A stretch of DNA of 56,070 bases from the IMG/VR virus record IMGVR_UViG_3300021197_001081, positions 1-56,070 of that record. The stretch is one strand, 5' to 3'. The stretch's first letter is position 1; each line of letters begins with the position of its first letter. The DNA comes from a virus (taxonomy: Duplodnaviria; Caudoviricetes). Below are positions 21,326-46,923 of this stretch, one piece after another. A model generated the notes under the pieces. That model was not told the origin of the DNA. It saw only the letters and a list, made by a program, of their open reading frames with translations, and did no database searches. The translations under genes and the position numbers were made by a program.

Positions 21326-24300
21326 TGGATAAATTTACAGAGTTATATAATTACTTAAAGGAAGAAGGATTAACAGATTTATCTGCAGAAGAATTCAAAG
21401 CTGAGTATGCAGCAGGTACTGCTAAAAATACTGAACTATATTCTTATTTAAAAGCTGAAAAATTAACAGATTTAGATGCGGAAAAATTTAATATAGAGTA
21501 TTTCCCTGGTGTTGAAAAAAAAAATCCAAACGACATTTCTCCTTCAAACACTCCAGAGGTTATTACGGACTCTACTACAGAAGCTCCAGAGGTCGTGGAT
21601 ACTTCTTCGGATACCACCACACTTGAAAAACCTTTAGGTGACAATACTGTAGTAGATGTACAGGAAGAAGACAATATGGTTACCGAATACCCTGCATACG
21701 ATCCTCGTGAGCAAGGTAAAGAAATAAATGCAAACCCAATTACATATAATTCCAGCGACTCTCAGTTTGACAAATCTTTGGCTTTTGTAACAGCTGATTT
21801 AATTGACAGAGAGGAAAGTGAAGTAGTCAACAGAATGAGATATCATTTTGAAGACTATGGTTTTGACTTTGAACAAGGTGGTGGCTTTATGAGTGGATTA
21901 GATGGAATGAAAGTTACATCTAAAGATGATCCCACTAAAAGCATAAACATTAATCTTGATCCTTTTTTTGGAGATATTTTTGGTGGTGAGTCAGGGCCTG
22001 CAAAAGAACTTAGAAAGTTTTTAAAAGAAAACAGAAGAACTGACCAGAGAATGCAAAGTCTGGATGCTTCGTATGATAAAAACAGAAAAAAATATTTTAG
22101 TGCAGAAGCAACTAAAGAAGATATTCAAGCTGTAAGAAATTCAGCTAAATCTTTAAATGAAGATTATAAAGTTTATCAAGACAGAAAAGCTATTCATGAA
22201 GCAGAAATGGAAGCATTAATGTCTCAAGGCAAGGATGTACAGAACACTCCTGAATGGAAGCTTAAATACCAACAAACTTTATTGGCAGGTAAAAGATTAA
22301 AACAATTTCAAAACAAACTTCAAAAAGACTATAGTAGTTACACACAATTTCAAAGTCAAGTAAATTCATCTGTTGGTAATTATATATCAATGAAAGAATC
22401 AGACGATAGTACATTTTTTGGCGGTTTAGTAAATGATTTTGTTGGCCCTGGTGTAAGTGAAGTTCTTGCGTCTGTTTGGGGTGCTGGTGTTGATGGGTTT
22501 TATAAAGTAGCTCAGTTTATTGACGAAGACTTTGGAATGACTGCTGAAGAAAAAAAAGATCGTTATATTGATATTGCAAAAGATCTTGGGTATCCAGTTC
22601 CTGAAAATATAGAAGACGATGCTGTTTACACAAAGTGGTTAGAAGGTTTGCAGGAGCAAGGGTTTGATGATGAAGAAGTAGAGTCAGAAAAAATAGGTGA
22701 ATTGTCAATTAATACGTTTCCTAAAGAAATAATGGAACGACTTGAAGCTGATGGTTTTGATTTAAGTAAGCCAACTTTAAATGGACAATACTTTAATAAA
22801 AATCAGTCAGGATTTAATAAATTTTTAAATGGACAATACATTGACCTTCCTGACTATGCTTATGATAAAACAAGAGGTGAGCGATTAAAAAGATTGGTAT
22901 TAGATCAAGAGGTAAAAGAAAATAAAAATCCACAAAAAGATTTAATAAAAAAATACTTTAACGAAATATTATCTGCAGATGATATCTCAGATGAAAAATA
23001 CGCTAAACAATCTAATAGCAATATTGTTTATACTGGACTTTCTGGTCTTGCTAAGTCTCTTCCATCTGTATTAGTTTCTTTTGCTTCAAGAGGAAAAATA
23101 GCTCCAGCTGTTGGAGTGGGAGCGGCAAAAAGAAATTTAGTTGCAAGAGGGTTAGGTCTAACAACAAAAGGAGGAATTGCCCAAACAATTTCATTTGCTA
23201 TGTTGCAAGCTGAAGCAATGAATGTTGAAATGAATAATGATCCTGATTTTAAGTATGTTACTGAGTCAGAAAGAAAAAACATAATTATTCCAACATCTAT
23301 TACAGTAGGTCTTTTAGAACGTTATGGTTTTAGAAATATAGCGTCAAACAAAGCTATAATGACTGGTTTAATGAACAGGGTAACTAATGCTTTACCTAAA
23401 GGAGCTACCGCGCAAATGTTCAAAAACAAGATGAATGATGTTATTCAAAGCAATATTGCTCGTGGCATTTTTTCAAACAAAGCTGTAAAAGCTGCTACAA
23501 CTTTTACTGGTCGAGTTACTAAAGCTGCTTTGGCAGAAGCAGAAACAGGTGGTCTTCAGCAAATAGCTGAGATGGGCTACAAAGATGTGTGGAACAACAT
23601 GAATAATAAAGACATGTTTGAACAGCCTGAATTATGGACTAAAGAGTTTTGGGGAACTGTTGGGCATGCTGCAGCTGCTGAAGCTGTAGGTGGTTTTGTG
23701 ATGGGTGTTCCTGGGGCAGTAATTGCGGCAGCTAAAAACAAAACAGAAGACTTGCTTTCTGATGATCTTGTTGACATGTTTGACATGATAAGAAATGATG
23801 AAATAACTGTAGAAGCTTATCAAGCACAATTAGATTTATCAGTTGCTAATGGTACAATAACAGCTGAAAAAGCAGCACAAGATTTATTAGATTTTAACAC
23901 ATTAAGTGGAGCTGCTAATACTTTACCAAGCGACTTAGATGTTAACTCAAGAAAAAAAGGATTATTATTGATTTTTGAGCAGCAGCAATTAGAAGCTGAA
24001 ATGGAAAAATTAAATAAGAATTTAAATTCTTATAAAACCAAAGAAGCCAGAGTTGAAGAAATAAAAAACGAAATTGGACAGCTTGGAACTAATCAAGCTC
24101 AAGCAAATACCAATTTAAGAAATGAGACTGAAGGAATTCAAGATTCTGTTTTAGTTACAGAAGAAGATGCCACAAAATCTTTACAAGATAAGGGGGTGCA
24201 AAACCCTACAGTTGAACAAATTAAAGCCGAACAAGATGCCTTACAAAAGCAAAGCACAACGAGCCTGGATGCACAAGAATCTTCCAGAAGTAGCGAAGAG

Positions 24301-27300
24301 GTGGGACAAAGCGTACCCAACAGCCAGTCTACCCAACAGAGCGAAACCGAAGACAAAGCTCAAGACAAGAAGAAGACCGAAGAGAAAGTAAGTAAAGACG
24401 ATCAAAATGACATTGATGATTTCTTTGGTGATGAAGTTTTAGATGACGTTGAAACCTCTTCAGATAATTTATCTATAAATAGAAAACAAGTAGAGGGAGA
24501 TACAGAAATAGAGAATACAACTTTAGCAGCAGCTGTAGTAAATAAAGCTAAAAAAGCTGCACGAGCAATTGCTAAAATAGCACCTGAAGTGAAGATAGTT
24601 TTGCACGACACTCAAGCAGAATACGAAAAGTACGCAACCAAGGGTAGTCGTGGGTATTACAATCCAAACAGTAAAGTTGTACATATTAATTTAACTAAGG
24701 CTAAAGGAAACACAGTAGCTCACGAAGTTTTTCATGCGGTATTTTTAGATAAAATATCAGGGGGTGATGTTCAAGCTCAACAAGCAGCTTTAAAACTGAT
24801 AACCTCTGTAAGAAAAACCTTACCAGCTGAATCATTGTTAGCTAAAAGAATAGATAATTTTGCTAAAAATTATGATGAAAATATTAAAAATGAAGAGAAG
24901 TTAGCAGAGTTATTCTCTTTGATGGCCACTGAATATAAAACATTAAAGAAGCCAGGGAAGAATAAAGTTATAGAATTTATAAGATCAATGGCGGCTAAAT
25001 TAGGCGTTAAAATCCCTGGTGGTTTTGGTAAAACAGACGAGTCAGTTATAGATTTTATGAATGCATTTTCTAAAAAAGTTAGAACTGGTACTGAAATAAC
25101 AGAAGGTGATGTAGATGTTTTAAATAAAATAAATGAAATGCAGGGCGGTGAAAACATTACCAATCCTGCAAATGCATTTAGAGAACAAAGGGTAGGAGGC
25201 TTTGATATTAAATATACCGAAAACGAAAAAATATCACAGTATATAAAAGATGGAAGAATTACTGAGCCAAAAAACCTTGAAAAATTTAGAGGAAATAAAA
25301 CTGCAATTACTTCACCTGATGACATGGTGGTTGGTGAAATATCTTTTAATGGTGAAAAAATATTTGAAGGACAAGGAGGTTTATTTTTTGTAACTAAGTT
25401 TGGAGATGTATGGGCTGCTGGAGATAAAACGACAGCAACTAAATTAGCAGACATGATTAATAGAAGTGTTGATGCTAATGGCGGAAAAGGATATCTTACT
25501 TTGACGAAAGGGACAGATAAAAAATTGATTAGTAGTGCCGCTGGAGTTAATTCAAGTCTTGGGGTAATTGATGTTTTGCTTAATCAAAATATTTTACCTA
25601 AATCAGTTGTAAGAACTGCTGTTAAAAAAGTTATAAGCGATTTCGGTGGTGGTAATATAGATTTAACTGGAACATCAAAACAAATGGTTTCACAGTTAAG
25701 AGATTTTTTTGGAGATAAAAAGAATGCCACTTTTGAAGCTCGTGGAACTGTAATGGAAAGAATAATTGCAGAGATAGGTATGGATAAAAGACTTGGAGAT
25801 TTAAAAAAGAAGAACTCTAAGTTAACTAAAATTTTAGGAGGTGATTCATCTAAAACTTTGGTGGGTGGTAAGACAAGTAGAACAGCAAATAGTTTAGTAG
25901 ACTTAGTTGCTTCATTAGCCGCAGAACAAATCACCAAAGGATTAAATACTGGAGATATTTATGGAGTGATTGAAGTGGATGGTAAAGTTGAATATTATCC
26001 AGGCACTCATCCAAGTTACCCTGCACATATAAGACAGGTTAACAAAAAACCTCCTACGCTGCACTTACCTAAAAACAGACCTGCTGCAAGGGATTACTTG
26101 ATGAGAGATAGTAATAAAATTTATAAAACTCCAGCTGTTAGTCCAACAGAATATGGATCATTTTATGAGTTAGATTCTAAAGTAGAAAGTTCTACTGAAT
26201 CAAAGACTGAGAAAAGACAAGGTAGAGAACAGTCTACTGAACAGCAAGTAAAAGATCAAACTGGAATGCCAGCAAGTGGCTTCTATAGCGCTCAAGCTAT
26301 GGTATCTGATATCCAACGCCAGTTTAATAGAATTGGTCCAGGATATGTGGCTAAAAGAGCCAAGCAAGGCGCTTATGGAGGCGGTGGCGGCGTATATGTC
26401 ATTGGCCCTAATAAGCGTATTGTAAAAAATCCTACACGAAAAGGACGTCAACAGGCAATGGATAATGAAAACGATTTGCTTAGAATTATAATAGCTGGCC
26501 GAGAAGAAGGAGGTTTTGAAGATGCAGCTATAAAAGATTATTTAAAGAGAAGAAAAAGAAAGGTTGATGGTAAAACAGCAAGTGCTTATAGTGCGAAAGA
26601 AATTAATGCTGCATTCAAAGTTTTAGAAAGCGAAGCTTTTGATTCTTACATGTTTAGAGAATACCCTACAAGTTTTAATGACATAAAAGGTGGTTTTCTG
26701 GCTGGTCTTAAATTAATGAAAGATGTTGATACTTACTATAAAAAATTAGTTGAAAAGAATAATTTAATTAAAGACAGAGTTGCAAAAAACAGGAAGACAA
26801 AACAAGTACCACTGACTGACGAACAAATTAATTTAAAAGTTTTAGATTACTTTATGTCGCTCCCTGGATACAAAAGCGTAGGGGTAAAAGGTAAAAGACA
26901 GACATCTCAACAGCTTGCTATGGAACGTGATATGTTAAACATACTGCTTCCTGATCCATTAAAGGCTAATCCTAAACGTATTGCAGCAATAAACAGAAGG
27001 ATAAAAAACATAAAGTTTACTGAAAGAAACCTTAAAGGTGTTCAGAGAGCTTTAAGAAATTACATAAGAACCGTACTACCAAGAGATTTATATACTAAAA
27101 AAGAAATAACTGATTTAATTGATAAGGTGAATAGAGTAAACGCTACAAACTTTGAATCAGTTAAAGATGAGGTTTTTAAAATAGTTACTACAAAAACAAA
27201 CAAAAGACTTGAGAGTGTTTTATTTAAGATGCTCGACAAAGGGTATACCACTATTCAAAGTGGTAGATTTAAAGGTGTAAAAATTGATAATGAAACTCGT

Positions 27301-30243
27301 AAAAAGTTAAATCGTATCAATAAATTAGTAGTGAACCCTAAGTCAACTGGAGATCAAATAATGGAAGCCAATGAAAAACTTTTAAAATTATATAATAAAG
27401 TTTCTACAGAAGAGGTGGTAGACGAAAAAGATAAAAAAAGTCGTAAGACTAAATCTACATTTAGTAAAAGTGATTTACAGCAGATGGCTGAAATTACATT
27501 AGCTATGCAGATAAACACATCTTTTACTCAAGAAATGAATGACTCTAATAAAACTACTCAGTTAAGCTCAGTAATCAATAGCTTAAAACAAATAGAAGAG
27601 TCTGGGAAAGCTAATTTTGAGTACGAATTACTACAAGACGCTATACAATACAGAGAGAATGAGAGAGCTGTATACAAGGATATGACAGGTATAGATATTG
27701 ATGCAAAACAATCACTTATTGACCAAGGTATACCTGAGAATGAAATTACTGAGTTTATGGTAAACGAAGAGTTTCAAAAAATTAAAAAAGATATTTCACT
27801 TGATGCTAAAGAATCAGGTGGCTTGAAAGTAGAAGGTGTTATAAAAAGATTTAAAGGTTCACTAAATAGTTTAGCCGCTAAAATTGAGCAAGGGTTATTT
27901 GGAAGTGCAGAAGATATGACAGGTTTGATAGATAGAATATCTACACAACCAGGGGAAATATTTGAAGGTGCAACTCAAGAGCTGACGCAGAAAAAAATAC
28001 GTTCTTCTTCAAGAGTTTATAAGTCAAGAATGATTGGACAGCAATTAAGTCTTTCTAATAAAATGACAGAATTATTTGGTGAGAAATGGGTTAAAATAAA
28101 CAGAAAAAACTCTCAGATGACTGAATCTATTGTTCGCAGTAAGGTCAAAGATGATTTACTACAAGGACAATTAAAAGAAGCTCAAGAAAATAAAACTCTG
28201 AAGAAAGGAGAACGAACAGCTTTAATTAATTCAATACAAAAGGAGATTGATCAAAACACAGTAAACTTAAGTCAAAACCAATTGCTTTATTATTACTCAC
28301 AGATGCAAGATCCTTCTTTAGAGGGGAGTATGATAAACACTTTTAATCCCACAAGAAAGGGGAATATAGTGTTTGATAATGAATTTAAGAGCAGAATAGA
28401 GCAAGAGATAAGCGATAAATTAGATGACAGATTAAAAGACCTGTCTGAGTGGATGATAAAAGATTATTATCCAACTTCTTATGACCACTACAATAATACT
28501 TACAAGAAGATTTACAGGACTGATATGCCTTGGAATCAAAACTATGCTGGTCGTGTGTATCGTCAAAACGAAAACGACATGGAGGCCTTAGATTTATTAG
28601 CCGACAGTCAATCATGGATTACAAACGTTGGTTCTGCAAGTACTAAAGTAAGAGTTCAAAACACAAACCCAATTGAAAAAGTAGATGGTATAGATGCATT
28701 ACTTAATTATACTAAGGATATGGAGTATTTTGCTGCATATGGTGTGGCTATAAGAGATATTAATAAAATATTTTCATCACCAATGATCAAAGAAACCATT
28801 AAAGAAAAATTTGGTTCTACTATTTACACATATATTGATGATTCTATAAAAAAAATAGCAAACAAGGGAATACAATCACAAAGACAAATACAAATAATAA
28901 ATACTTTTAATAATACATTTTTATTATCTCGTTTAGGTTTAAACCCAACACTTATATTAAAACAAATGACATCTTTCATCACTTATGGAAATGACATTGG
29001 TTATTTGAATTGGGTTAAAAATGCCGCTATGAGTACGACTCAAGCAAAAAAATTAGTAAACGAAGTTTTAGACAACTCAATTGTCCTACAAGACAGGTAT
29101 GGACAAACAATTAAAAGAGCTGTAGAAACATATGCTGATGAAAAGTTTGAAAAAATGAACGGTGGTTTATTAGAGCGTTTTGGATTGACAAACGCAAAAC
29201 AAGACAAGATTAGTAAAATTTTAATGTGGACCACAATGACAGGGGATAAAGGCGCTATACTTGTTGGTGGTGTTCCAAATTACTTATACTATAAAAATGA
29301 ATTTAAAAAGAAAAACCCTGAAGCATCAGAACAAGAGGTTATTGATCATGCAATAAAAAAGTTTGAAGCTGATACATTAAGAACTCAGCAGTCATCTGAT
29401 TTACAAGATAAAGATTACTTTCAAACTAAAGGGGCGCTTATAAGAGCCTTTAACATGTTCTTGACAACTCCAAAACAATATTTCCGTAGAGAAATTATTG
29501 CAGCAAGAAACATGTATAGAATTGTTAAAAGTGGTGGTAAGCAGGGTAAAGGGGTTATAAAAGATAATGGAGAATTAGATTACTGGAGAAGTTTAGGTAA
29601 ATCTGCAAGAAGTTTAGCAGTGTATCATGTGGTGATGCCAGTGGTATTCCAGTGGGTATCTGCTGGATTGCCAGGACTTTTAAGAGGGATGAATGAGGAG
29701 GACGAAAAAGATTTAGGAATAGCCGCTCTTTTAGGTAATTTAAATGCTTTGTTTATTATAGGAAAAGTAGCTGAGACTCTTAAAGATGTTGCGTTAGGCA
29801 AGCCTTGGGCAAAAACTCCATCAACAATTCCAATTTTAGGACAAACATCACAGCTGGCAGATTTATACATGCGTGCGCAAAAATCAAAAGGTGTAAAGAG
29901 AGAAGAAGCTATGAATAAATTTATGGCAGAAGCAATTGCTCTTACAGGTATACCAGCCCCACAATTAAGGAAGTTTATGAAAAACTTTTCTGAAATTGGT
30001 GACTCAAAATCTGCAGGGGAGTTTATCTTAAAACTTTTTAATTTTTCTGAATATCAGCAAAGAGGAGGTAAGAAAGGTAAAGGTTTTAAATTAACAAAAA
30101 CTGAACTAAAAGAATATTTCCCAGAACTATACCCAGAAACTGAAGAAGACGGTCCACTGGAAGATTATCTTAAATTACAGAAAGAAGCTAAAGCAGAACA
30201 AAAACGTTTAAGAAAAGAACTCCTTGATCAAATGTATAAATAA
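21325..30243 (+). CDS. Giant internal virion / large polyvalent protein with a zincin-like HEXXH domain
   Basis: 2972 aa. RGYYNPNSKVVHINL...AHEVFHAVFL at 24721-24735 with downstream EEKLAELF; helical C-terminal region. No DxDxD RNA polymerase motif seen. Confidence 0.7.
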   Translation: MDKFTELYNYLKEEGLTDLSAEEFKAEYAAGTAKNTELYSYLKAEKLTDLDAEKFNIEYFPGVEKKNPNDISPSNTPEVITDSTTEAPEVVDTSSDTTTLEKPLGDNTVVDVQEEDNMVTEYPAYDPREQGKEINANPITYNSSDSQFDKSLAFVTADLIDREESEVVNRMRYHFEDYGFDFEQGGGFMSGLDGMKVTSKDDPTKSININLDPFFGDIFGGESGPAKELRKFLKENRRTDQRMQSLDASYDKNRKKYFSAEATKEDIQAVRNSAKSLNEDYKVYQDRKAIHEAEMEALMSQGKDVQNTPEWKLKYQQTLLAGKRLKQFQNKLQKDYSSYTQFQSQVNSSVGNYISMKESDDSTFFGGLVNDFVGPGVSEVLASVWGAGVDGFYKVAQFIDEDFGMTAEEKKDRYIDIAKDLGYPVPENIEDDAVYTKWLEGLQEQGFDDEEVESEKIGELSINTFPKEIMERLEADGFDLSKPTLNGQYFNKNQSGFNKFLNGQYIDLPDYAYDKTRGERLKRLVLDQEVKENKNPQKDLIKKYFNEILSADDISDEKYAKQSNSNIVYTGLSGLAKSLPSVLVSFASRGKIAPAVGVGAAKRNLVARGLGLTTKGGIAQTISFAMLQAEAMNVEMNNDPDFKYVTESERKNIIIPTSITVGLLERYGFRNIASNKAIMTGLMNRVTNALPKGATAQMFKNKMNDVIQSNIARGIFSNKAVKAATTFTGRVTKAALAEAETGGLQQIAEMGYKDVWNNMNNKDMFEQPELWTKEFWGTVGHAAAAEAVGGFVMGVPGAVIAAAKNKTEDLLSDDLVDMFDMIRNDEITVEAYQAQLDLSVANGTITAEKAAQDLLDFNTLSGAANTLPSDLDVNSRKKGLLLIFEQQQLEAEMEKLNKNLNSYKTKEARVEEIKNEIGQLGTNQAQANTNLRNETEGIQDSVLVTEEDATKSLQDKGVQNPTVEQIKAEQDALQKQSTTSLDAQESSRSSEEVGQSVPNSQSTQQSETEDKAQDKKKTEEKVSKDDQNDIDDFFGDEVLDDVETSSDNLSINRKQVEGDTEIENTTLAAAVVNKAKKAARAIAKIAPEVKIVLHDTQAEYEKYATKGSRGYYNPNSKVVHINLTKAKGNTVAHEVFHAVFLDKISGGDVQAQQAALKLITSVRKTLPAESLLAKRIDNFAKNYDENIKNEEKLAELFSLMATEYKTLKKPGKNKVIEFIRSMAAKLGVKIPGGFGKTDESVIDFMNAFSKKVRTGTEITEGDVDVLNKINEMQGGENITNPANAFREQRVGGFDIKYTENEKISQYIKDGRITEPKNLEKFRGNKTAITSPDDMVVGEISFNGEKIFEGQGGLFFVTKFGDVWAAGDKTTATKLADMINRSVDANGGKGYLTLTKGTDKKLISSAAGVNSSLGVIDVLLNQNILPKSVVRTAVKKVISDFGGGNIDLTGTSKQMVSQLRDFFGDKKNATFEARGTVMERIIAEIGMDKRLGDLKKKNSKLTKILGGDSSKTLVGGKTSRTANSLVDLVASLAAEQITKGLNTGDIYGVIEVDGKVEYYPGTHPSYPAHIRQVNKKPPTLHLPKNRPAARDYLMRDSNKIYKTPAVSPTEYGSFYELDSKVESSTESKTEKRQGREQSTEQQVKDQTGMPASGFYSAQAMVSDIQRQFNRIGPGYVAKRAKQGAYGGGGGVYVIGPNKRIVKNPTRKGRQQAMDNENDLLRIIIAGREEGGFEDAAIKDYLKRRKRKVDGKTASAYSAKEINAAFKVLESEAFDSYMFREYPTSFNDIKGGFLAGLKLMKDVDTYYKKLVEKNNLIKDRVAKNRKTKQVPLTDEQINLKVLDYFMSLPGYKSVGVKGKRQTSQQLAMERDMLNILLPDPLKANPKRIAAINRRIKNIKFTERNLKGVQRALRNYIRTVLPRDLYTKKEITDLIDKVNRVNATNFESVKDEVFKIVTTKTNKRLESVLFKMLDKGYTTIQSGRFKGVKIDNETRKKLNRINKLVVNPKSTGDQIMEANEKLLKLYNKVSTEEVVDEKDKKSRKTKSTFSKSDLQQMAEITLAMQINTSFTQEMNDSNKTTQLSSVINSLKQIEESGKANFEYELLQDAIQYRENERAVYKDMTGIDIDAKQSLIDQGIPENEITEFMVNEEFQKIKKDISLDAKESGGLKVEGVIKRFKGSLNSLAAKIEQGLFGSAEDMTGLIDRISTQPGEIFEGATQELTQKKIRSSSRVYKSRMIGQQLSLSNKMTELFGEKWVKINRKNSQMTESIVRSKVKDDLLQGQLKEAQENKTLKKGERTALINSIQKEIDQNTVNLSQNQLLYYYSQMQDPSLEGSMINTFNPTRKGNIVFDNEFKSRIEQEISDKLDDRLKDLSEWMIKDYYPTSYDHYNNTYKKIYRTDMPWNQNYAGRVYRQNENDMEALDLLADSQSWITNVGSASTKVRVQNTNPIEKVDGIDALLNYTKDMEYFAAYGVAIRDINKIFSSPMIKETIKEKFGSTIYTYIDDSIKKIANKGIQSQRQIQIINTFNNTFLLSRLGLNPTLILKQMTSFITYGNDIGYLNWVKNAAMSTTQAKKLVNEVLDNSIVLQDRYGQTIKRAVETYADEKFEKMNGGLLERFGLTNAKQDKISKILMWTTMTGDKGAILVGGVPNYLYYKNEFKKKNPEASEQEVIDHAIKKFEADTLRTQQSSDLQDKDYFQTKGALIRAFNMFLTTPKQYFRREIIAARNMYRIVKSGGKQGKGVIKDNGELDYWRSLGKSARSLAVYHVVMPVVFQWVSAGLPGLLRGMNEEDEKDLGIAALLGNLNALFIIGKVAETLKDVALGKPWAKTPSTIPILGQTSQLADLYMRAQKSKGVKREEAMNKFMAEAIALTGIPAPQLRKFMKNFSEIGDSKSAGEFILKLFNFSEYQQRGGKKGKGFKLTKTELKEYFPELYPETEEDGPLEDYLKLQKEAKAEQKRLRKELLDQMYK
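24236..24391 (+). CDS. Overprinted basic microprotein (51 aa) in the +1 frame of the giant gene
   Basis: MPYKSKAQRAWMHKNLPEVAKRWDKAYP... resembles stand-alone phage microproteins of the MP(F/Y)KSKAQRxWM...AKRW type (recognised from memory). Confidence 0.6.
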   Translation: MPYKSKAQRAWMHKNLPEVAKRWDKAYPTASLPNRAKPKTKLKTRRRPKRK

Positions 30244-41304: not shown

Positions 41305-41552
41305 ATAAGATTGTTTAATTGGTTAATACTCTCGCTGAAATCTACTCCAGCAATCACATTTGGATTTGGCTCTTCACATCCTTCCATTTCTACCCACTGC
41401 TCGTAACTTCTGTAGCTTGTGCGAACAAAAATAATAGACTCTAATGACTCTATGCTCCTGCCATTGATGTGGCATACTAATCTCATTTCTTCTTCGGTTG
41501 CGATGGTCATTACATCGTCCCATACTTGATTGAATTTATCTATCTTCCCCAT
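41301..41552 (-). CDS. Hypothetical early protein
   Basis: 83 aa, ATGA coupling to the next gene. Confidence 0.65.
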   Translation of the reverse strand: MGKIDKFNQVWDDVMTIATEEEMRLVCHINGRSIESLESIIFVRTSYRSYEQWVEMEGCEEPNPNVIAGVDFSESINQLNNLI

Positions 41553-41707
41553 TTTGATTTTTTGTGTTTTTTGTTAGACTTCCAGTAATTTTTCTTTGCC
41601 CATTTCTTCTTCATCTTAGATGTCTTGCATCGCTTTGAAGTTCCACAGCTCGTTAACGTGGGTGTAGCTATAAGCATACACATCACAAACATTAAAATTT
41701 TCTTCAT
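41540..41707 (-). CDS. Small basic lipoprotein (55 aa)
   Basis: MKKILMFVMCMLIATPTLTS-CGTSKR: signal peptide with lipobox LTSC. Not in the ORF track. Confidence 0.65.
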   Translation of the reverse strand: MKKILMFVMCMLIATPTLTSCGTSKRCKTSKMKKKWAKKNYWKSNKKHKKSKWGR

Positions 41708-41724
41708 AATTGTAGTTTTTTAGA

Positions 41725-41838
41725 TTAATCTTGGTCTTTGGTTTCTACGTAGAACTCTGCATGTTCATGGCAGTCTCCACATAAAGAATCACTAAGGAAT
41801 GATGGGGATGCCCCACAACAGTTACTGTACTTATTCAT
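41725..41838 (-). CDS. Zinc-finger-like microprotein (37 aa)
   Basis: MNKYSNCCGA...LCGDCHEHAEF. Not in the ORF track. Confidence 0.65.
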   Translation of the reverse strand: MNKYSNCCGASPSFLSDSLCGDCHEHAEFYVETKDQD

Positions 41839-41875
41839 AAATTATAGTTTTAAATATCTGCATTATTGCATTGAT

Positions 41876-41915
41876 ACTGGAGAAGGAATCGAACCTTACT
41901 TACAACCATTCCAGT
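41876..41915 (-). ncRNA. 40-nt tRNA-like element (acceptor stem plus T-arm, no anticodon arm), copy 2
   Basis: ACUGGA-AUGGUUGUAAG-UAAGG-UUCGAUU-CCUUC-UCCAGU-A. Confidence 0.6.
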
Positions 41916-41932
41916 TAGTCGGACAGCGTGTG

Positions 41933-42427
41933 CTAAAGCTTGTAGCTATAGTTCTCTGCTACCCATGTGCATAAAGTCTCTCTATTGCCATCTGACAGCT
42001 CCATGAACAGGTTAAATACATTAGCAGTTCCACCATGACCATTTCTCTTGTTGAGGTTGTTCCATTTGGCTTCTATGTGATTAGCCAGTGACGTACCCTC
42101 ACCAAAAGCTTTTTGTATCCATCCAGCTGGGAAGTTATACGCAAAGTACATGAAGTTAGTAATTTGGTCAGCTGCAGCATCTCTTTTCTCTTCTGCTTCA
42201 TCATACTCGTCATACCATTCTGTCCATACGTACAGCTCCTGCTCATGTGCGTCATCCAGTATGAACTCATCAGAGCATTCAGCGTAGGCACATTTGTAGT
42301 TCTCTTTCAACCAATCCACCAAGCTGGATTCATCTTTAATGGTTTCGTCATTGTGAAGAAGAAATCCTTCATACATTCCTTCTCCAGTGATAATACATGT
42401 TCTTGGTTCTTTGTTTAAATTACTCAT
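41933..42427 (-). CDS. Acidic hypothetical early protein
   Basis: 164 aa; ATG is 22 nt downstream of a predicted hammerhead cut site. Confidence 0.7.
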   Translation of the reverse strand: MSNLNKEPRTCIITGEGMYEGFLLHNDETIKDESSLVDWLKENYKCAYAECSDEFILDDAHEQELYVWTEWYDEYDEAEEKRDAAADQITNFMYFAYNFPAGWIQKAFGEGTSLANHIEAKWNNLNKRNGHGGTANVFNLFMELSDGNRETLCTWVAENYSYKL

Positions 42428-42443
42428 AATTGTAGTTTTTAAT

Positions 42444-42493
42444 GATTAAGACGCTTCACAGCGTTTCGACTATTGAAGTCTCGTCAGTTAATC
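42444..42493 (-). ncRNA. Type I hammerhead ribozyme A
   Basis: GAUUAA-CUGACGA-GACU-UCAAU-AGUC-GAAA-CGCU-GUGA-AGCG-UC^UUAAUC: full conserved core and three perfect stems. Confidence 0.95.
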
Positions 42494-42820
42494 TATGTGC
42501 TGCTCCAGTGCCGACAGCACGTCATACATCATGTGTCTTTGTGTAGCATCATGAGTTACGTTCTTTTCGATTAGCTTGTACATAAGAAGTCCTACGTCTT
42601 CAGCATTCAAGCTATCTACTTGGTCTTGCCAGTCTGAGTTTGTAAGTTCAACTGAAGACATTAATTGTTTGATTTGTGGTTCTTTGAGCTGTGATACAGC
42701 ACTGTCAAGGTTATCAATACTTGCTTGACATGAGTCATGGTCAGGATTCCATTCTCCACTTTGTAACATTTCAAAATCTTTGATTGCTGTTACTACTTTA
42801 CTAATTACTTTGTAATTCAT
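42488..42820 (-). CDS. Hypothetical early protein
   Basis: 110 aa; its last codon and stop (GAU UAA) form stem I of hammerhead A. Confidence 0.7.
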   Translation of the reverse strand: MNYKVISKVVTAIKDFEMLQSGEWNPDHDSCQASIDNLDSAVSQLKEPQIKQLMSSVELTNSDWQDQVDSLNAEDVGLLMYKLIEKNVTHDATQRHMMYDVLSALEQHID

Positions 42821-42837
42821 TGTGATTTAATTTAAGA

Positions 42838-43077
42838 TTAATATAATTGTGATTTTTCTATTTGTTTTACCTCTCTTGCTGGTAATTCACTGGTGTACTC
42901 TTCGTACTTGTCAAATGTCTTTTGACACAGATTATCGTACTTGGTATACATCTTTTCATTACCATCTCCATCAGCGTCATTACGCATGTCATTGGCAGTA
43001 TTATACTTGATTAGCCAGTAAACTGCTTTGTTTACTTTTGCTTGGTGTTTCTTGTTTAATGCTATTATTTTACTCAT
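42838..43077 (-). CDS. Hypothetical early protein
   Basis: 79 aa. Confidence 0.7.
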   Translation of the reverse strand: MSKIIALNKKHQAKVNKAVYWLIKYNTANDMRNDADGDGNEKMYTKYDNLCQKTFDKYEEYTSELPAREVKQIEKSQLY

Positions 43078-43079
43078 AA

Positions 43080-43220
43080 TTAAAATGGATTAGATGTTAC
43101 GAAATAGCTTAGTGCTATTACATTCTTTTTTACTTGTTCTAATTCGTACAGCTTTTGAGCTGTCTTGATTAATGCACAGTCAATACGTACATACTTGATT
43201 ACTGTTTTTGATTTACTCAT
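43080..43220 (-). CDS. Small hypothetical early protein (46 aa)
   Basis: MSKSKTVIKYVRIDCALIK...SNPF*; ATG is 22 nt after the hammerhead B cut. Not in the ORF track. Confidence 0.6.
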   Translation of the reverse strand: MSKSKTVIKYVRIDCALIKTAQKLYELEQVKKNVIALSYFVTSNPF

Positions 43221-43236
43221 TGTAGTTGAATTTTAA

Positions 43237-43286
43237 AGTTAAGACGCCTCTCGGCGTTTCGTCCTATATGGACTCATCAGTTAACT
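43237..43286 (-). ncRNA. Type I hammerhead ribozyme B
   Basis: AGUUAA-CUGAUGA-GUCC-AUAUA-GGAC-GAAA-CGCC-GAGA-GGCG-UC^UUAACU: canonical core, GNRA-capped stem III. Confidence 0.95.
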
Positions 43287-43623
43287 ATGCATCGTGAACA
43301 CAGCCAACTGCTGAGTTCTGCCACTCGAAGTACAACCCATGCTTCTCCAGTGTTTCTTGTAGTTTCTTGCTGCCCCAGTACATTTCAGTATCGTAGTAAT
43401 CTAACCACTCTTCTGCATTATACTCTTCTGCTTTTATCCAAAAGTATCCTCTGTAGTCTTGGTAACCTCGCTGGTTTTGATACCATATGTCTATTGGGCA
43501 ACCAAGTTTTTTTAACTCGATAAACGCTTTGATTGATGCTGGAGTCATGTGGCTGATTTCTTCAGCAGAAAACTCATTGTTAAACATTTTTTTTGTGTAC
43601 TTCACTGTTGTTGAATTTGACAT
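43285..43623 (-). CDS. First early gene, hypothetical protein
   Basis: 112 aa; UAG stop overlaps stem I of hammerhead B. Confidence 0.7.
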   Translation of the reverse strand: MSNSTTVKYTKKMFNNEFSAEEISHMTPASIKAFIELKKLGCPIDIWYQNQRGYQDYRGYFWIKAEEYNAEEWLDYYDTEMYWGSKKLQETLEKHGLYFEWQNSAVGCVHDA

Positions 43624-43646
43624 TTTAATTAAATTTAAAGATTAGT

Positions 43647-44030
43647 TATCGGTACGAGTATTGCTCTCGCTGGTCTGTCAATCAGATACCGATATTAGTG
43701 TCGTAAATTTCACTCTCAAGACTCGCACATTAACTCCATCCACAGATGGTTAAAGAGATGTCATTCGCTCTACAGAATCCTCAATTAAGGGATGCCAATA
43801 TTTTATCCTTGAAATCATTTTTACTTTATGTAAGACCTATGAACACCTTGGTGCTAACTACTTCGCTTGATAGATATGGATAGAGAGATAATCATAACAG
43901 AATCGTTAAATGATTGATTATCAGCAGTCTGCGTGAAGCACAGTTAAAGCAACACTTTAGATAATGTGTCGTAACTGCTTGATTCTCAGTAGTTTAGGTC
44001 AGAATGTCAATGAACGTGAGGTTTCCCCCC
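43647..44030 (-). ncRNA. Candidate ~400-nt structured leader/ncRNA of the early transcript
   Basis: Nested helices GACCUA/UAGGUC, AACUACU/AGUAGUU, CAGUUA/UAACUG, GAUAAUCA/UGAUUAUC, CCAUC/GAUGG and UAUCGGUA/UACCGAUA; no long ORF. Confidence 0.6.
44004..44029 (-). promoter_or_regulatory. boxB/boxA-like antitermination site
   Basis: GGGG-GAAA-CCUC GNRA hairpin followed by GUUCAUUGACAU, immediately after the promoter. Confidence 0.45.
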
Positions 44031-44255: not shown

Positions 44256-44486
44256 GTCCTTCTCCTTTTTTAATGTGTGCAGAAAATGTGCAACAATGGT
44301 TTTTATGTTTGCAGTATGAAAAACTATAATTGGTCAAACCTATCGGTACAGCAGAAAATAAATGTCAAACAATATGCAATCAACTTGTATGGAAAAAGAT
44401 GGCACACATCTAAACCAAACTTTTGCAGCAAACTGAACTACCTTGAAATCTACAGCATACTACATAGTTAGTCCTTCTCCTTTTTT
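44256..44486 (+). repeat. 16-bp direct repeat GTCCTTCTCCTTTTTT
   Basis: Exact copies at 44256-44271 and 44471-44486. Confidence 0.8.
44316..44471 (+). CDS. Small hypothetical protein (51 aa), probably leaderless
   Basis: MKNYNWSNLSVQQK...; TATGTTTG box at 44304-44311 only 4 nt before the ATG. Confidence 0.5.
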   Translation: MKNYNWSNLSVQQKINVKQYAINLYGKRWHTSKPNFCSKLNYLEIYSILHS

Positions 44487-45306: not shown

Positions 45307-46923
45307 ATGAGCAATTATATTCCAAAGAACCTTGAGTTCGATCAGCCTGGTCGAAATAAATTAATAAAAGGGATTACAAAAATTTCTAAAGCAGTAAAGA
45401 GTACGTTAGGCCCACGCGGAAAAACAGTTCTAATAGAATCGCCTGAACATATCGGAGGTATGACAATAACAAAAGACGGTGTAACTGTAGCTAACTCTAT
45501 TTTTTTGGATGATCCTGTAGAGAACCTTGCGGTTCAAATGTTAAAAGATGCAGCACGTAGAACTGCTAACTCAGCTGGAGATGGAACGACTACAGCAATT
45601 GTATTAACCGAGGCTATTATAAAAGCTGGTGAAAGACTTCTAACAGAAAAAAATAATATAACTGAGGTTGTAAAATCAATAAACAGATTCAGTAAAATTA
45701 TTCTTAAAAAATTAAAAAAGAACTCACGAAAAATTACCAAGGCAAGGCTATTAGATGTTGCAACAATTTCAGCAAACAACGATAAGTCTTTAGGAAAAAT
45801 AATTGCTGATGCTTATAATAAAGTTGGAAAGAACGGTATTGTAACTGTAGAGCGATCTCAAAACCATGAGACATATGCCACAGTTACTAATGGAATAAAA
45901 GTTGATAGAGGTTATACTTCTAATTTATTTATCACTAATCAAAAAAACGATGAAGCAATCTTAGAAGATGTTTTAGTTTTAGTTTGTGACCAGGAGATAA
46001 GTAATATTCTACAAATAGAAAATGTTTTAAAACCAATCATTCAACAAAATAAAAAACTTCTCATCATTGGTCCATGCTCAGTCAATGTTGTGAATACCCT
46101 GGCGGCAAACGTAGTGCGTAACGGACTTAAGCTTTGTAATATTATACCACCACAATTTGGATATAAACAACACGAGCTTATGCAGGACATTGCGTTGTCG
46201 GTAGGGGCTAAATACTTTTCAGAAAAAACTGGAGATGATTTAAGTCTGTTAAGCATGGAAGATCTTGGTCATGCTGATAAAATTATTTCAGGAAAGAGTC
46301 AAACGGTTATCATTAAAAATAATCAAATGACTGAAGAGATAGAAAAAAGAATAACTGATCTTAAGGAACAACAAGAAAACACAGAAATAGTTTCAGATAA
46401 AGAGTTTATAAACGAGCGTATTGCAAGTTTATCAGGATCAATAGGAGCTATTTATGTTGGGGGTAATTCTGATATAGAGCAAAAAGAAAAGTATGACAGA
46501 GTAGAAGATGCTGTGTGTGCTGTTCGTAGCGCTTTGCAAGAGGGTATTGTAAGAGGTGGAGGACTTGCTTTATTTTATTCAAGAGAAGAACTTAGTTATA
46601 TTTCTAAGAAGACAGTTAATGATGACGAAAGTACAGCTATAGATATTCTAATGGAATCTTTATGTGCGCCATTAAGACAAATATTACAAAACGCTGGATT
46701 AAATCTTGATGAATACTACAATGTATCTACAACAAGTGATTCATGGATTCTTCAACAATTAGACGAGTACAATGTAAAGACTGAAGTAAAAGGAGATTTT
46801 TTTAAGATGGGTGTTATAGATCCTTTAAAAGTAACTAAGACTGCTTTTGAAAATTCAGTTAGTGTAGCAACAACTATTCTAACAACAAACGCAATAATAA
46901 CTCACGCGCGAGTAAAAGAATAA
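45307..46923 (+). CDS. groEL: Phage-encoded chaperonin GroEL (Cpn60)
   Basis: TLGPRG, ITKDGVTVA, AGDGTTTA, DRVEDAVCA and GVIDPLKVT motifs; no GGM tail. Confidence 0.97.
   Translation: MSNYIPKNLEFDQPGRNKLIKGITKISKAVKSTLGPRGKTVLIESPEHIGGMTITKDGVTVANSIFLDDPVENLAVQMLKDAARRTANSAGDGTTTAIVLTEAIIKAGERLLTEKNNITEVVKSINRFSKIILKKLKKNSRKITKARLLDVATISANNDKSLGKIIADAYNKVGKNGIVTVERSQNHETYATVTNGIKVDRGYTSNLFITNQKNDEAILEDVLVLVCDQEISNILQIENVLKPIIQQNKKLLIIGPCSVNVVNTLAANVVRNGLKLCNIIPPQFGYKQHELMQDIALSVGAKYFSEKTGDDLSLLSMEDLGHADKIISGKSQTVIIKNNQMTEEIEKRITDLKEQQENTEIVSDKEFINERIASLSGSIGAIYVGGNSDIEQKEKYDRVEDAVCAVRSALQEGIVRGGGLALFYSREELSYISKKTVNDDESTAIDILMESLCAPLRQILQNAGLNLDEYYNVSTTSDSWILQQLDEYNVKTEVKGDFFKMGVIDPLKVTKTAFENSVSVATTILTTNAIITHARVKE

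What the first reader, a model, noticed from the sequence alone, without database searches (positions are those of the whole stretch)
43237..43286. Hammerhead ribozyme B overlaps a stop codon and leaves a 22-nt leader
The - strand reads AGUUAA CUGAUGA GUCC-AUAUA-GGAC GAAA CGCC-GAGA-GGCG UC^UUAACU, a complete type I hammerhead. The 5' arm of stem I overlaps the UAG of the first early gene (43285-43623). Predicted cleavage between 43243 and 43242 leaves exactly 22 nt before the AUG at 43220. Inference: a terminating ribosome would melt stem I, so cleavage could be coupled to upstream translation.
Basis: partly seen in the sequence, partly recalled or inferred. Interest (0 to 1): 0.85.

Follow-up and report, generated by a model that had tools for sequence, protein, structure and literature searches.

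The report
Phage hammerhead ribozyme between early genes
A real self-cutting RNA (type I hammerhead ribozyme) sits between two small genes of a marine phage; it belongs to a large, already known kind of phage ribozyme that probably cuts multi-gene messages into single-gene pieces.

Summary
43286..43237 (-) is a canonical type I hammerhead: Rfam RF00163 35.9 bits against a cut-off of 34, and 53.7 bits with a model built only from other phages. The UAG at 43287-43285 overlaps stem I. Cleavage at 43243|43242 leaves 22 nt before the AUG at 43220. A second copy at 42493..42444 has the same layout, also with a 22-nt leader. Both belong to a very large class of compact type I hammerheads in viral contigs. 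In that class the ribozyme fills the whole spacer between genes. The upstream stop lay inside or within 9 nt of it in 114 of 129 cases. The cut lay 19-26 nt before the next AUG in 96 of 146. The leader left behind is the A-rich start region without a Shine-Dalgarno sequence that is typical of Bacteroidetes. Clusters of phage hammerheads flanking genes were described in 2011, so this is a new member of a known kind. The idea of coupling to translation is untested. The same ribozyme-plus-downstream-gene unit follows different upstream genes, which argues against a built-in link. However, copy B alone can form an unusually strong alternative hairpin with the end of gene 1.

The parts
43236..43287 (-). 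Hammerhead B, type I. The 50-nt core motif is 43237-43286. It is flanked by U43287 and U43236, which appear to pair with the loop II ends A43269 and A43265.
   Evidence: Rfam 35.9 bits; R1 53.7 bits; the isolated 50-mer folds into the hammerhead as its minimum-energy structure, -13.8 kcal/mol; flank/loop covariation.
43242..43243 (-). Predicted cleavage site, between C43243 (position 17 of the GUC triplet) and U43242.
   Evidence: Position in the Rfam and R1 alignments. The chemistry was not tested.
43285..43623 (-). Upstream ORF (112 aa, no family hit). Its stop UAG is at 43287-43285.
   Evidence: No Pfam or PHROG match. Homologues in 11 viral contigs.
43274..43287 (-). Stops in all three frames within 14 nt: UAG 43287-85, UAA 43283-81, UGA 43279-77 and 43276-74.
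   Evidence: Read.
43221..43242 (-). 22-nt leader left on the 3' product. Stem I 3' strand occupies -22 to -17. There is an A tract at -14 to -11, and A at -6 and -3.
   Evidence: It matches the F. johnsoniae start-region features in PMC6847099 sections 15 and 17.
43080..43220 (-). Downstream ORF (46 aa). It travels together with hammerhead B in other contigs.
43274..43314 (-). Alternative hairpin. The 5' arm (43314-43298, last codons of gene 1) pairs with the 3' arm (43290-43274), which holds the stop, the stem I 5' strand and CUGAUGA.
   Evidence: It is the minimum-energy structure of the 141-nt and 154-nt contexts. Duplex energy is -15.4 kcal/mol, rank 1 of 147. Only 1 of 4704 control windows is as strong.
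42443..42494 (-). Hammerhead A, the second copy. Stem I is GAUUAA/UUAAUC. The stop UAA 42490-42488 lies inside stem I. Cleavage is at 42450|42449, leaving a 22-nt leader to ATG 42427.
   Evidence: RF00163 25.8 bits, below the cut-off. R1 60.9 bits. Coordinates.
42488..42820 (-). ORF upstream of hammerhead A (110 aa).
41933..42427 (-). ORF downstream of hammerhead A (164 aa).

Best explanation
43286..43237 (-) is a functional type I hammerhead self-cleaving ribozyme. It is one of two in the early-side - strand operon of an uncultured marine phage whose host is most likely a member of the Bacteroidota (Flavobacteriia-like). It belongs to a very large class of compact phage hammerheads. The class has a 6-bp stem I, a 4-bp stem II with a 5-nt UNANU loop, and a 4-6 bp stem III with a tetraloop. 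One unpaired base on each side of stem I contacts loop II. Inferred mechanism: as the polycistronic RNA is made, the ribozyme folds and cuts between C43243 and U43242. The upstream piece keeps its intact stop codon and ends in the folded ribozyme with a 2',3'-cyclic phosphate. The weak, A/U-rich stem I lets the downstream piece go. That piece starts with a 5'-OH and a 22-nt leader that is just the A-rich, unstructured ribosome-loading region used by Bacteroidota, which has no Shine-Dalgarno sequence. The two ribozymes would split the operon into gene 1, genes 2-4, and gene 5 onward. This would allow separate stability and translation of each piece. The overlap with the stop codon arises because the ribozyme fills the whole spacer between genes and carries its own stops (UAA in stem I, UGA in the core). 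It is a trait of the class, not a special device of this copy. Shown here: motif, covariation, geometry, class-wide regularities. Inferred: cleavage itself, and its effect on stability and translation.
For: Motif. Rfam RF00163 scores above its cut-off. The independent model R1 hits only the two sites in 56 kb, at 60.9 and 53.7 bits, with the next hit at 14.8. The core matches the consensus that Perreault et al. required (Methods passage seen). Structure. On 150 model-aligned hits (134 distinct), 99.6% of cells are paired, 13 of 16 pairs change on both sides, and 0 of 500 shuffles reach this. A gap-free alignment of 41 sequences gives 99.0% paired; the stems in that set were pre-filtered by me, the two tertiary pairs were not. 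The two window copies differ by compensatory changes in all three stems. Tertiary contact. Last loop II base against the base 3' of stem I: U/A 105, A/U 13, G/A 8, A/A 2, G/G 1, of 129. In an independent set with other stem I sequences: U/A 41, A/U 2, other 7, of 50. Copy B carries the swapped form on both sides. Geometry. Stop position and leader length are as. Hammerheads with other stem I sequences from a pattern that leaves stem I free show the same layout, with Shine-Dalgarno leaders. Host. Leaders have A at -3 (0.78) and at -11 to -13 (0.71-0.79) and little G. This matches F. johnsoniae (PMC6847099 sections 15 and 17). Primase relatives occur only in phages of Flavobacterium, Nonlabens, Cellulophaga, Polaribacter, Maribacter and Bacteroides, or in unnamed phages (38 records). 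Clusters. A related contig has 9 hammerheads in 4.3 kb and another has 7. This is the arrangement that Perreault et al. 2011 described and showed to cleave in vitro for three bacterial or prophage examples (passages seen).
Against: No cleavage was measured for this RNA. In its natural context, nearest-neighbour folding predicts copy B not to form stem I at all: pair probability about 0, and the ribozyme fold is 6.7 kcal/mol worse than the alternative hairpin. It may therefore be slow or conditional. The isolated 50-mer of copy A does not fold stems II and III as its minimum-energy structure. The class sets were collected with patterns that fix the core, and for one set UUAA as well. Conservation of those letters is therefore partly by construction, and the counts are samples. 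Effects on translation or stability are inference only. The RNA-library contigs laid on the region include one that runs uncut across copy B (X4 record 29). Contigs cannot tell cut RNA from uncut RNA or from DNA.
Confidence: 0.7

Rival explanations
1. Translation-gated ribozyme (coupling with the opposite polarity to the reader's). In this phage the last codons of gene 1 (43314-43298) pair with the stop, the stem I 5' strand and CUGAUGA (43290-43274). This locks copy B in an inactive fold. Ribosomes translating gene 1 occupy the 5' arm and let the ribozyme fold, so cutting follows translation of gene 1.
For: The alternative hairpin is the minimum-energy structure in 141-nt and 154-nt contexts, and the ribozyme fold is 6.7 kcal/mol worse. 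The duplex of -15.4 kcal/mol is the strongest of 147 hammerheads. Their own upstream controls average -4.8, sd 1.8. Only 1 of 4704 control windows is as strong. Within the 56-kb - strand, the only windows that reach it (3 of 5603) are the real site. The hairpin forms from sequence transcribed before the 3' strand of stem I.
Against: It is not conserved. The orthologous ribozymes in L005 and L006 have the hammerhead as their minimum-energy fold, with ddG 0. Class-wide, the near-upstream windows pair no better than controls: -5.04 against -5.18, Wilcoxon p 0.064. The same ribozyme follows other upstream genes without this sequence. The finding is post hoc; about 0.03 such cases are expected among 147. 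Energy models ignore tertiary contacts and Mg2+.
Confidence: 0.12
2. One reading: a ribosome terminating on UAG melts stem I, so upstream translation lowers or times cleavage.
For: All three bases of the stop belong to the extended ribozyme: U43287 is the flanking contact base, and A and G are in stem I. A ribosome at a stop covers roughly a dozen bases downstream (established knowledge). It cannot coexist with the folded core.
Against: The stop position varies from -9 to +5 across the class, so no fixed geometry is under selection. After a fast co-transcriptional cut the conflict disappears. The unit follows different genes.
Confidence: 0.08
3. The repeated unit of ribozyme plus leader serves mainly as a recombination joint, or as the boundary of a mobile gene cassette, in the variable early region. 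RNA cleavage would be secondary.
For: The same copy-B unit with its downstream ORF lies behind at least three different upstream sequences. In 19 of 33 pairs of near-identical hammerheads in different loci, both flanks are unrelated; this was an ungapped comparison and is noisy. In L004, copy B carries the stem III of copy A.
Against: An invariant catalytic core and pervasive compensatory changes show selection on the RNA fold, not merely on DNA identity. Stem II and stem III sequences are highly diverse (109 stem II variants among 146), which is poor substrate for homologous recombination.
Confidence: 0.07
4. Because stem I is nearly the same in all copies of a genome, the 5'-OH end of a released piece could pair with the ribozyme at its own 3' end. 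It could then be ligated, giving circular or shuffled gene-length RNAs.
For: UUAA next to the core is shared by both window copies and by all copies in L005 and L006. Perreault et al. raised this possibility (passage seen).
Against: Perreault et al. looked for such products and report finding none. No backward joint appeared in the contigs laid (table 5). The distal two pairs differ between the window's two copies.
Confidence: 0.03

Closest known systems
Clustered hammerheads flanking genes in prophages and phages (Perreault et al. 2011, PMC3088659; passages seen)
   Same: Several same-strand hammerheads lie between short genes. The proposed role is to process long phage transcripts into single-gene or operon-length mRNAs.
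   Different: The tested examples were from Clostridium, Azorhizobium and Agrobacterium. The term 'stop codon' does not occur in the main text (0 occurrences). The fixed distance to the next AUG and the Bacteroidota-type leader are not discussed in the passages I saw. The supplements (alignments, figure on tertiary contacts) could not be opened.
Type I hammerheads of Rfam RF00163 (consensus dominated by animal satellite and repeat copies)
   Same: Same order of parts, same core, and a very similar stem II (GUCC...GGAC with a loop ending AUA). This is why copy B passes the cut-off.
   Different: Stem I here is only 6 bp and open. The contact to loop II seems to be made by the two unpaired flanking bases, not by a bulge inside a longer stem I (the latter is recalled).
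HHphage variant of haloviruses HF1 and HF2 (Perreault et al. 2011, Discussion passage)
   Same: It lies just upstream (13 nt) of the start codon of an early gene. The mapped transcript 5' end is within 3 nt of the cleavage site.
   Different: It is an archaeal virus with a variant core that needs high Mg2+. It sits before the first ORF of its transcript, not between ORFs.
Type I hammerhead in the intergenic UTR of a fusarivirid RNA virus (PMC13725137, passage seen)
   Same: The ribozyme spans nearly the whole short intergenic region, and the cut is a few nt (7) before the next start codon. It has been proposed to serve translation of the downstream ORF.
   Different: It is a eukaryotic RNA virus with cap-independent initiation, and the ribozyme is encoded in an RNA genome.
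Protein endonucleases that cut phage early polycistronic mRNAs (for example T4 RegB, or host RNase E); recalled, not checked here
   Same: It works like these: cuts between cistrons uncouple the fates of neighbouring genes.
   Different: No protein is needed here. The cut leaves 5'-OH and a cyclic phosphate, and the site is set by the RNA's own fold.

Membership tests
Hammerhead ribozyme, type I (Rfam RF00163, clan CL00010) | Three stems around a junction in the order stem I 5' strand, CUGANGA, stem II hairpin, GAAA, stem III hairpin, UH, stem I 3' strand. | tested here: met
   Alignments. The minimum-energy fold of the 50-mer is exactly this.
Hammerhead ribozyme, type I (Rfam RF00163, clan CL00010) | Core C3 U4 G5 A6 N7 G8 A9, G12 A13 A14, A15.1-U16.1, and H17 not G. 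| tested here: met
   CUGAUGA, GAAA and GUC are all present. The criteria are as listed in the Methods passage of PMC3088659.
Hammerhead ribozyme, type I (Rfam RF00163, clan CL00010) | Score at or above the curated gathering score. | tested here: met
   Copy B scores 35.9 against 34. Copy A at 42444-42493 scores only 25.8 but 60.9 bits with the class model R1.
Hammerhead ribozyme, type I (Rfam RF00163, clan CL00010) | Stems supported by compensatory changes in relatives. | tested here: met
   99.6% paired, 13 of 16 pairs with changes on both sides, 0 of 500 shuffles as high. That alignment was fitted to the model.
Hammerhead ribozyme, type I (Rfam RF00163, clan CL00010) | Tertiary contact between stems I and II, needed for speed at cellular Mg2+. 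| tested here: inconclusive
   Covariation of the last loop II base with the base 3' of stem I: U/A 105 and A/U 13 of 129; U/A 29, A/U 5, other 7 of 41. The 5' side has a swap in only one lineage (this one). No structure or kinetics are available.
Hammerhead ribozyme, type I (Rfam RF00163, clan CL00010) | Self-cleavage 3' of position 17, giving a 2',3'-cyclic phosphate and a 5'-OH. | not testable with these tools
   Only contigs of RNA libraries were available.
Gene-flanking hammerhead clusters of phages (Perreault et al. 2011) | Several same-strand hammerheads between genes of a phage or prophage. | tested here: met
   2 in the window. 9 and 7 in two related contigs.
   The stop lies at +1, +5, -3, -4, or -5 to -9 in 114 of 129 cases, with no single position dominating. 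The same ribozyme uses UAG here and UAA elsewhere.
Intrinsic transcription terminator | G+C-rich hairpin followed directly by a run of U. | tested here: not met
   The scan flags stem III plus CUUAACUUUA. The tail is interrupted, the region has 3 such sites against 2.5 expected from shuffles, and the hairpin is part of a complete hammerhead.

The most novel reading that the evidence does not exclude
Copy B is a ribosome-gated ribozyme. The end of gene 1 folds back on the stop codon, stem I and the catalytic core and keeps the ribozyme off. Only ribosomes passing through gene 1 free it. The phage would then cut genes 2-4 loose from gene 1 only on messages that are actually being translated. This would be a natural self-cleaving ribozyme whose switch is the ribosome itself.
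Probability: 0.12. Interest if true: 0.75.

Novelty: new member of a known kind. Interest (0 to 1): 0.45.

Why it matters
What hammerheads do in phages is still described as open (the review PMC6765202 says more work is needed; passage seen). This locus and its relatives give that question a concrete form. In this class the ribozyme takes up the entire gap between two genes. It supplies or touches the upstream stop. It cuts about 20 nt before the next start, which is the 5' edge of the unstructured start region that Bacteroidota ribosomes need in place of a Shine-Dalgarno sequence. That hypothesis can be tested with reporters in Flavobacterium. The flank/loop covariation predicts a minimal tertiary contact that could be tested with four point mutants. 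For genome annotation, these 50-nt elements are unannotated. In one cultured Flavobacterium phage, a weak match to the class model lies under a called opposite-strand 'hypothetical protein'.

Tried and rejected
Other hammerheads in the window. A loose core pattern, Rfam at E up to 5 and model R1 with filters off found only the two sites.

Named relatives by DNA. blastn of 41500-44000 against the phage collection found nothing. A 52-nt hammerhead query found only 27-nt matches in nine Elemovirus records.

Promoters and terminators. A Bacteroidetes-type promoter pattern gave 4 matches against 6.0 expected. The sigma-70 and terminator scans were at shuffle level. No transcription start could be assigned.

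Function of neighbouring genes. The five small ORFs have no Pfam or PHROG family.

General anti-ribozyme hairpins. These were tested class-wide and rejected.

Whether the ribozyme goes with the downstream rather than the upstream gene, class-wide. The ungapped flank comparison was too noisy, because indels shift the register. Only the copy-B example is used.

RNA evidence. Four marine metatranscriptome runs of one study hold the region, but only as contigs. One X4 contig starts at 43244 with 10 loose letters that look like a sequencing-adapter tail (my recollection). That is 1 nt from the predicted 3' end of the upstream product. A similar loose end at 41403 in X3 is unrelated to any ribozyme, and another X4 contig crosses copy B uncut. 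This is a single contig from a single study and is not counted as evidence. No backward joints were listed.

Supplements of PMC3088659 could not be seen; they may already hold this hammerhead class and its tertiary contact. The 2011 J Biol Chem paper on hammerheads in the human microbiome is only cited in the library and was not read.

Literature searches. Searches for a description of stop-codon overlap or fixed leader length in phage hammerheads found none. The library lacks most subscription papers.

Full report
WHAT IS THERE.

The window is a 56,070-bp viral record estimated 88% complete.
- Rfam RF00163 scores it 35.9 bits, above the curated 34, E 2.3e-5. It is the only family in the window that reaches its cut-off.
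- At a relaxed threshold a second copy appears at 42493..42444, scoring 25.8 bits.
- The ORF list and the sequence confirm the geometry.
- For copy B, the upstream ORF 43285-43623 ends in UAG at 43287-43285, whose A and G open stem I. Cleavage after C43243 leaves 43242-43221, 22 nt, before ATG 43220.
- For copy A, the stop UAA 42490-42488 lies inside stem I (GAUUAA). Cleavage at 42450|42449 again leaves 22 nt before ATG 42427.
- The two copies differ by compensatory changes in all three stems.
- Within 14 nt, copy B closes all three reading frames: UAG, then UAA in stem I, then UGA twice in the core.

IS IT MORE THAN CHANCE?

I built a covariance model (R1) from 21 hammerheads of other viral contigs, with no window sequence among them.
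- With filters off it finds only these two sites in both strands of the window, at 60.9 and 53.7 bits. The next hit scores 14.8 bits.
- The isolated 50-mer of copy B folds into the hammerhead as its minimum-energy structure, -13.8 kcal/mol, z -2.4.
- The isolated copy A keeps stem I, but the energy model prefers another pairing for its interior.

RELATIVES.

The upstream ORF has relatives in 11 viral contigs. The close ones carry the same ribozymes, and two more distant ones carry many more. One related record has 9 model hits within 4.3 kb and another has 7.

That gave 157 distinct contexts.

Model R1 found 160 hits in 98 sources totalling 0.92 Mb.
- On the 150 hits aligned to the model (134 distinct), 99.6% of cells pair.
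- 13 of 16 pairs show changes on both sides.
- No shuffle of 500 reaches the observed values, and slid controls pair at 22-42%.
- This alignment is fitted to the model, and the loci were chosen by a pattern. The invariance of UUAA and of the core is therefore partly by construction. The diversity of stems II and III is not: there are 109 stem II variants among 146 sequences.

- 15 of the 80 rows shown were loci already fetched with the UUAA pattern.
- In the 101 new loci there were 106 matches. 71 of them had at least 4 contiguous stem I pairs, with many different stem I sequences.
- The UUAA group is therefore one large branch of a broader class of compact type I hammerheads in viruses.

CLASS-WIDE GEOMETRY.

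Upstream stop position. Of 149 UUAA-type hammerheads with enough flank, 129 had an upstream open frame of at least 50 codons; the other 20 were left out. Positions are counted from the first U of UUAA.
- UAA inside stem I: 52.
- UGA of the core: 21.
- UAG at -4 or -3: 16.
- -5 to -9: 25.
- Together 114 of 129 lie inside or within 9 nt of the ribozyme. The remaining 15 lie elsewhere: 6 further upstream and 9 further downstream.

Downstream leader length. This was measured from the cut to the first start codon of an ORF of at least 40 codons.
- 19-22 nt in 66 of 146.
- 19-26 nt in 96 of 146.
- At most 35 nt in 123 of 146.
- 20 had longer leaders and 3 had no such ORF.

Leader composition.
- A at -3: 0.78.
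- A at -6 and -7: 0.60 and 0.63.
- A at -11 to -13: 0.71-0.79.
- G is rare.
- 31 of 131 leaders contain any Shine-Dalgarno-like four-letter word.

This is the signature of the start region in Flavobacterium johnsoniae. There, adenines at -3, -6, -12 and -13 promote initiation, and the region from -20 to +20 is kept unstructured (PMC6847099, sections 15 and 17 read).

In copy B the A tract sits at -14 to -11, with A at -6 and -3. The stem I 3' strand occupies -22 to -17. The '22 nt' is therefore the start region plus the six bases of stem I, with almost no spacer.

Host. Protein relatives of the window's primase occur only in phages of Flavobacterium, Nonlabens, Cellulophaga, Polaribacter, Maribacter and Bacteroides, or in unnamed phages (38 records). 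This fits a Bacteroidota host.

Hammerheads with other stem I sequences show the same layout. Stops lay at -9 to +1 relative to the core in 32 of 52. Leaders were 19-42 nt in 42 of 57, and many of these leaders contain a visible Shine-Dalgarno sequence.

A TERTIARY CONTACT THAT INCLUDES THE STOP CODON.

In the UUAA set the following positions are strongly conserved:
- the base just 5' of stem I is A in 95%;
- the base just 3' of stem I is A in 87%;
- loop II is U-N-A-N-U.

The last loop base covaries with the 3' flank. The counts are U/A 105, A/U 13, G/A 8, A/A 2 and G/G 1, of 129. All 13 cases with U in the flank have A in the loop.

An independent set with other stem I sequences gives U/A 41, A/U 2 and other 7, of 50. 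In that set the 5' flank is A in 48 of 50.

On a gap-free alignment of 41 sequences, the 5' flank / first loop base pair is A-U in 39 and U-A in 2. The other tertiary pair is standard in 34 of 41. I had pre-filtered the stems of that set, so only the two tertiary pairs are informative there.

Copy A has the common form. Copy B has the swapped form on both sides: U43287 with A43269, and U43236 with A43265. The 5' swap occurs in only this lineage, so it counts as one evolutionary event.

If this contact is real, all three bases of the UAG belong to the ribozyme, and the functional unit is 43287..43236.

HOW IT MOST LIKELY WORKS.

The arrangement matches what Perreault et al. 2011 described. They reported hammerheads flanking genes in prophages, proposed that these cut long transcripts into gene-length mRNAs, and showed cleavage in vitro for three examples (passages seen).

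The type I order of parts puts the whole ribozyme on the upstream product and only six bases on the downstream one.
- The upstream message would keep its stop codon and gain a structured 3' end with a cyclic phosphate.
- The downstream message would begin with a 5'-OH about 20 nt before its AUG.
- Stem I is weak, with four A-U pairs of six, so the products should separate readily.
- In the window the two cuts would give gene 1, genes 2-4, and gene 5 onward.

The - strand cluster continues into a Sak annealing protein, a PDDEXK nuclease, a primase and an SNF2 helicase. This fits an early or middle region. These steps are inferred; nothing here measures cleavage, stability or translation.

THE COUPLING IDEA.

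Three results speak against a designed link to the upstream gene.
- The stop position floats while the downstream distance is tight.
- The identical copy-B ribozyme, leader and 46-47-aa downstream ORF lie behind at least three unrelated upstream sequences in other contigs. There the stop is the UAA in stem I, not UAG.
- Class-wide, sequence just upstream pairs with the 5' half of the ribozyme no better than sequence further upstream: -5.04 against -5.18 kcal/mol, p 0.064.

One result speaks for a local form of coupling.
- In this phage and its near-identical relative L004, codons near the end of gene 1 (43314-43298) pair with the stop, stem I and CUGAUGA (43290-43274).
- This hairpin is the predicted minimum-energy structure in context. 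The ribozyme fold is 6.7 kcal/mol worse, and stem I has a pair probability of about 0.
- The duplex, -15.4 kcal/mol, is the strongest of 147.
- Only 1 of 4704 control windows is as strong. In the whole - strand of the window, the only windows that reach it (3 of 5603) are the real site.
- About 0.03 such cases would be expected among 147, so it is unlikely to be pure chance. The finding is nevertheless post hoc.
- It is absent from the orthologous ribozymes in L005 and L006, which have ddG 0.

If the hairpin is real, ribosomes on gene 1 would switch the ribozyme on. I give this about 12%.

COMPARISON AND NOVELTY.

This is a member of the hammerhead family by every feature that can be tested in silico. 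It also fits the known kind 'hammerheads flanking phage genes'.

In the passages and searches available I did not find the following described:
- the class-wide embedding of the upstream stop;
- the fixed distance of about 20 nt to the next AUG, in a large branch of the class whose leaders carry the Bacteroidota start-region signature (the named relatives of this window's primase infect Bacteroidota);
- the flank/loop II covariation.

The supplements of the 2011 paper and most subscription papers could not be checked. The review PMC6765202 still calls the purpose of such ribozymes unsettled.

VERDICT.

The element is a new member of a known kind. Interest is moderate (0.45), mainly for the testable class-wide regularities and the odd alternative hairpin of copy B.

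Noticed in passing
window 44256-44470: Contigs of two RNA-library runs (X1, X4) join 44255 directly to 44471. This skips 215 nt between 16-nt direct repeats in the non-coding region upstream of the - strand operon (table 5). It is probably a deletion variant between repeats in the population.
   Followed up: no
window about 41880-41930 (- strand): Just after ORF 41933-42427 the sequence contains a tRNA-like T-arm motif (GGTTCGATTCC) followed by an acceptor-like tail. ARAGORN finds no tRNA in the window and Rfam lists none at E up to 5. It could be a tRNA fragment or an attachment-site remnant.
   Followed up: partly
window 45307-46923 (+): The phage encodes a GroEL-type chaperonin (Pfam Cpn60_TCP1, E 1e-58). 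It is divergently oriented from the hammerhead operon.
   Followed up: no
window 21325-30243 (+): A 2972-aa ORF with no PHROG match. The neighbouring 1596-aa ORF 11055-15845 matches a virion structural protein family (phrog_14478, E 2e-232).
   Followed up: no
L249 (MT497078.1 27095-27152, - strand): A cultured Flavobacterium phage (Elemovirus) has a weak hammerhead match (R1 33.2 bits) between two - strand genes. The record annotates a 108-nt hypothetical CDS on the opposite strand over it. That CDS is probably a false gene call.
   Followed up: partly
L005 3377-3400; L006 3781-3805: Some copies in related phages carry an extra small GAAA-capped hairpin (AGGC-GAAA-GCC) between the ribozyme and the start region. 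This lengthens the leader to 31-33 nt.
   Followed up: no
L004 1201-1250: In a 97%-identical relative, copy B has the stem III and loop of copy A: three changes, two of them compensatory. This could be gene conversion between copies or parallel compensatory change.
   Followed up: no
window 43269: One X4 contig lacks one base in loop II of copy B (table 4), which would give a 4-nt loop. It is probably a strain variant.
   Followed up: no
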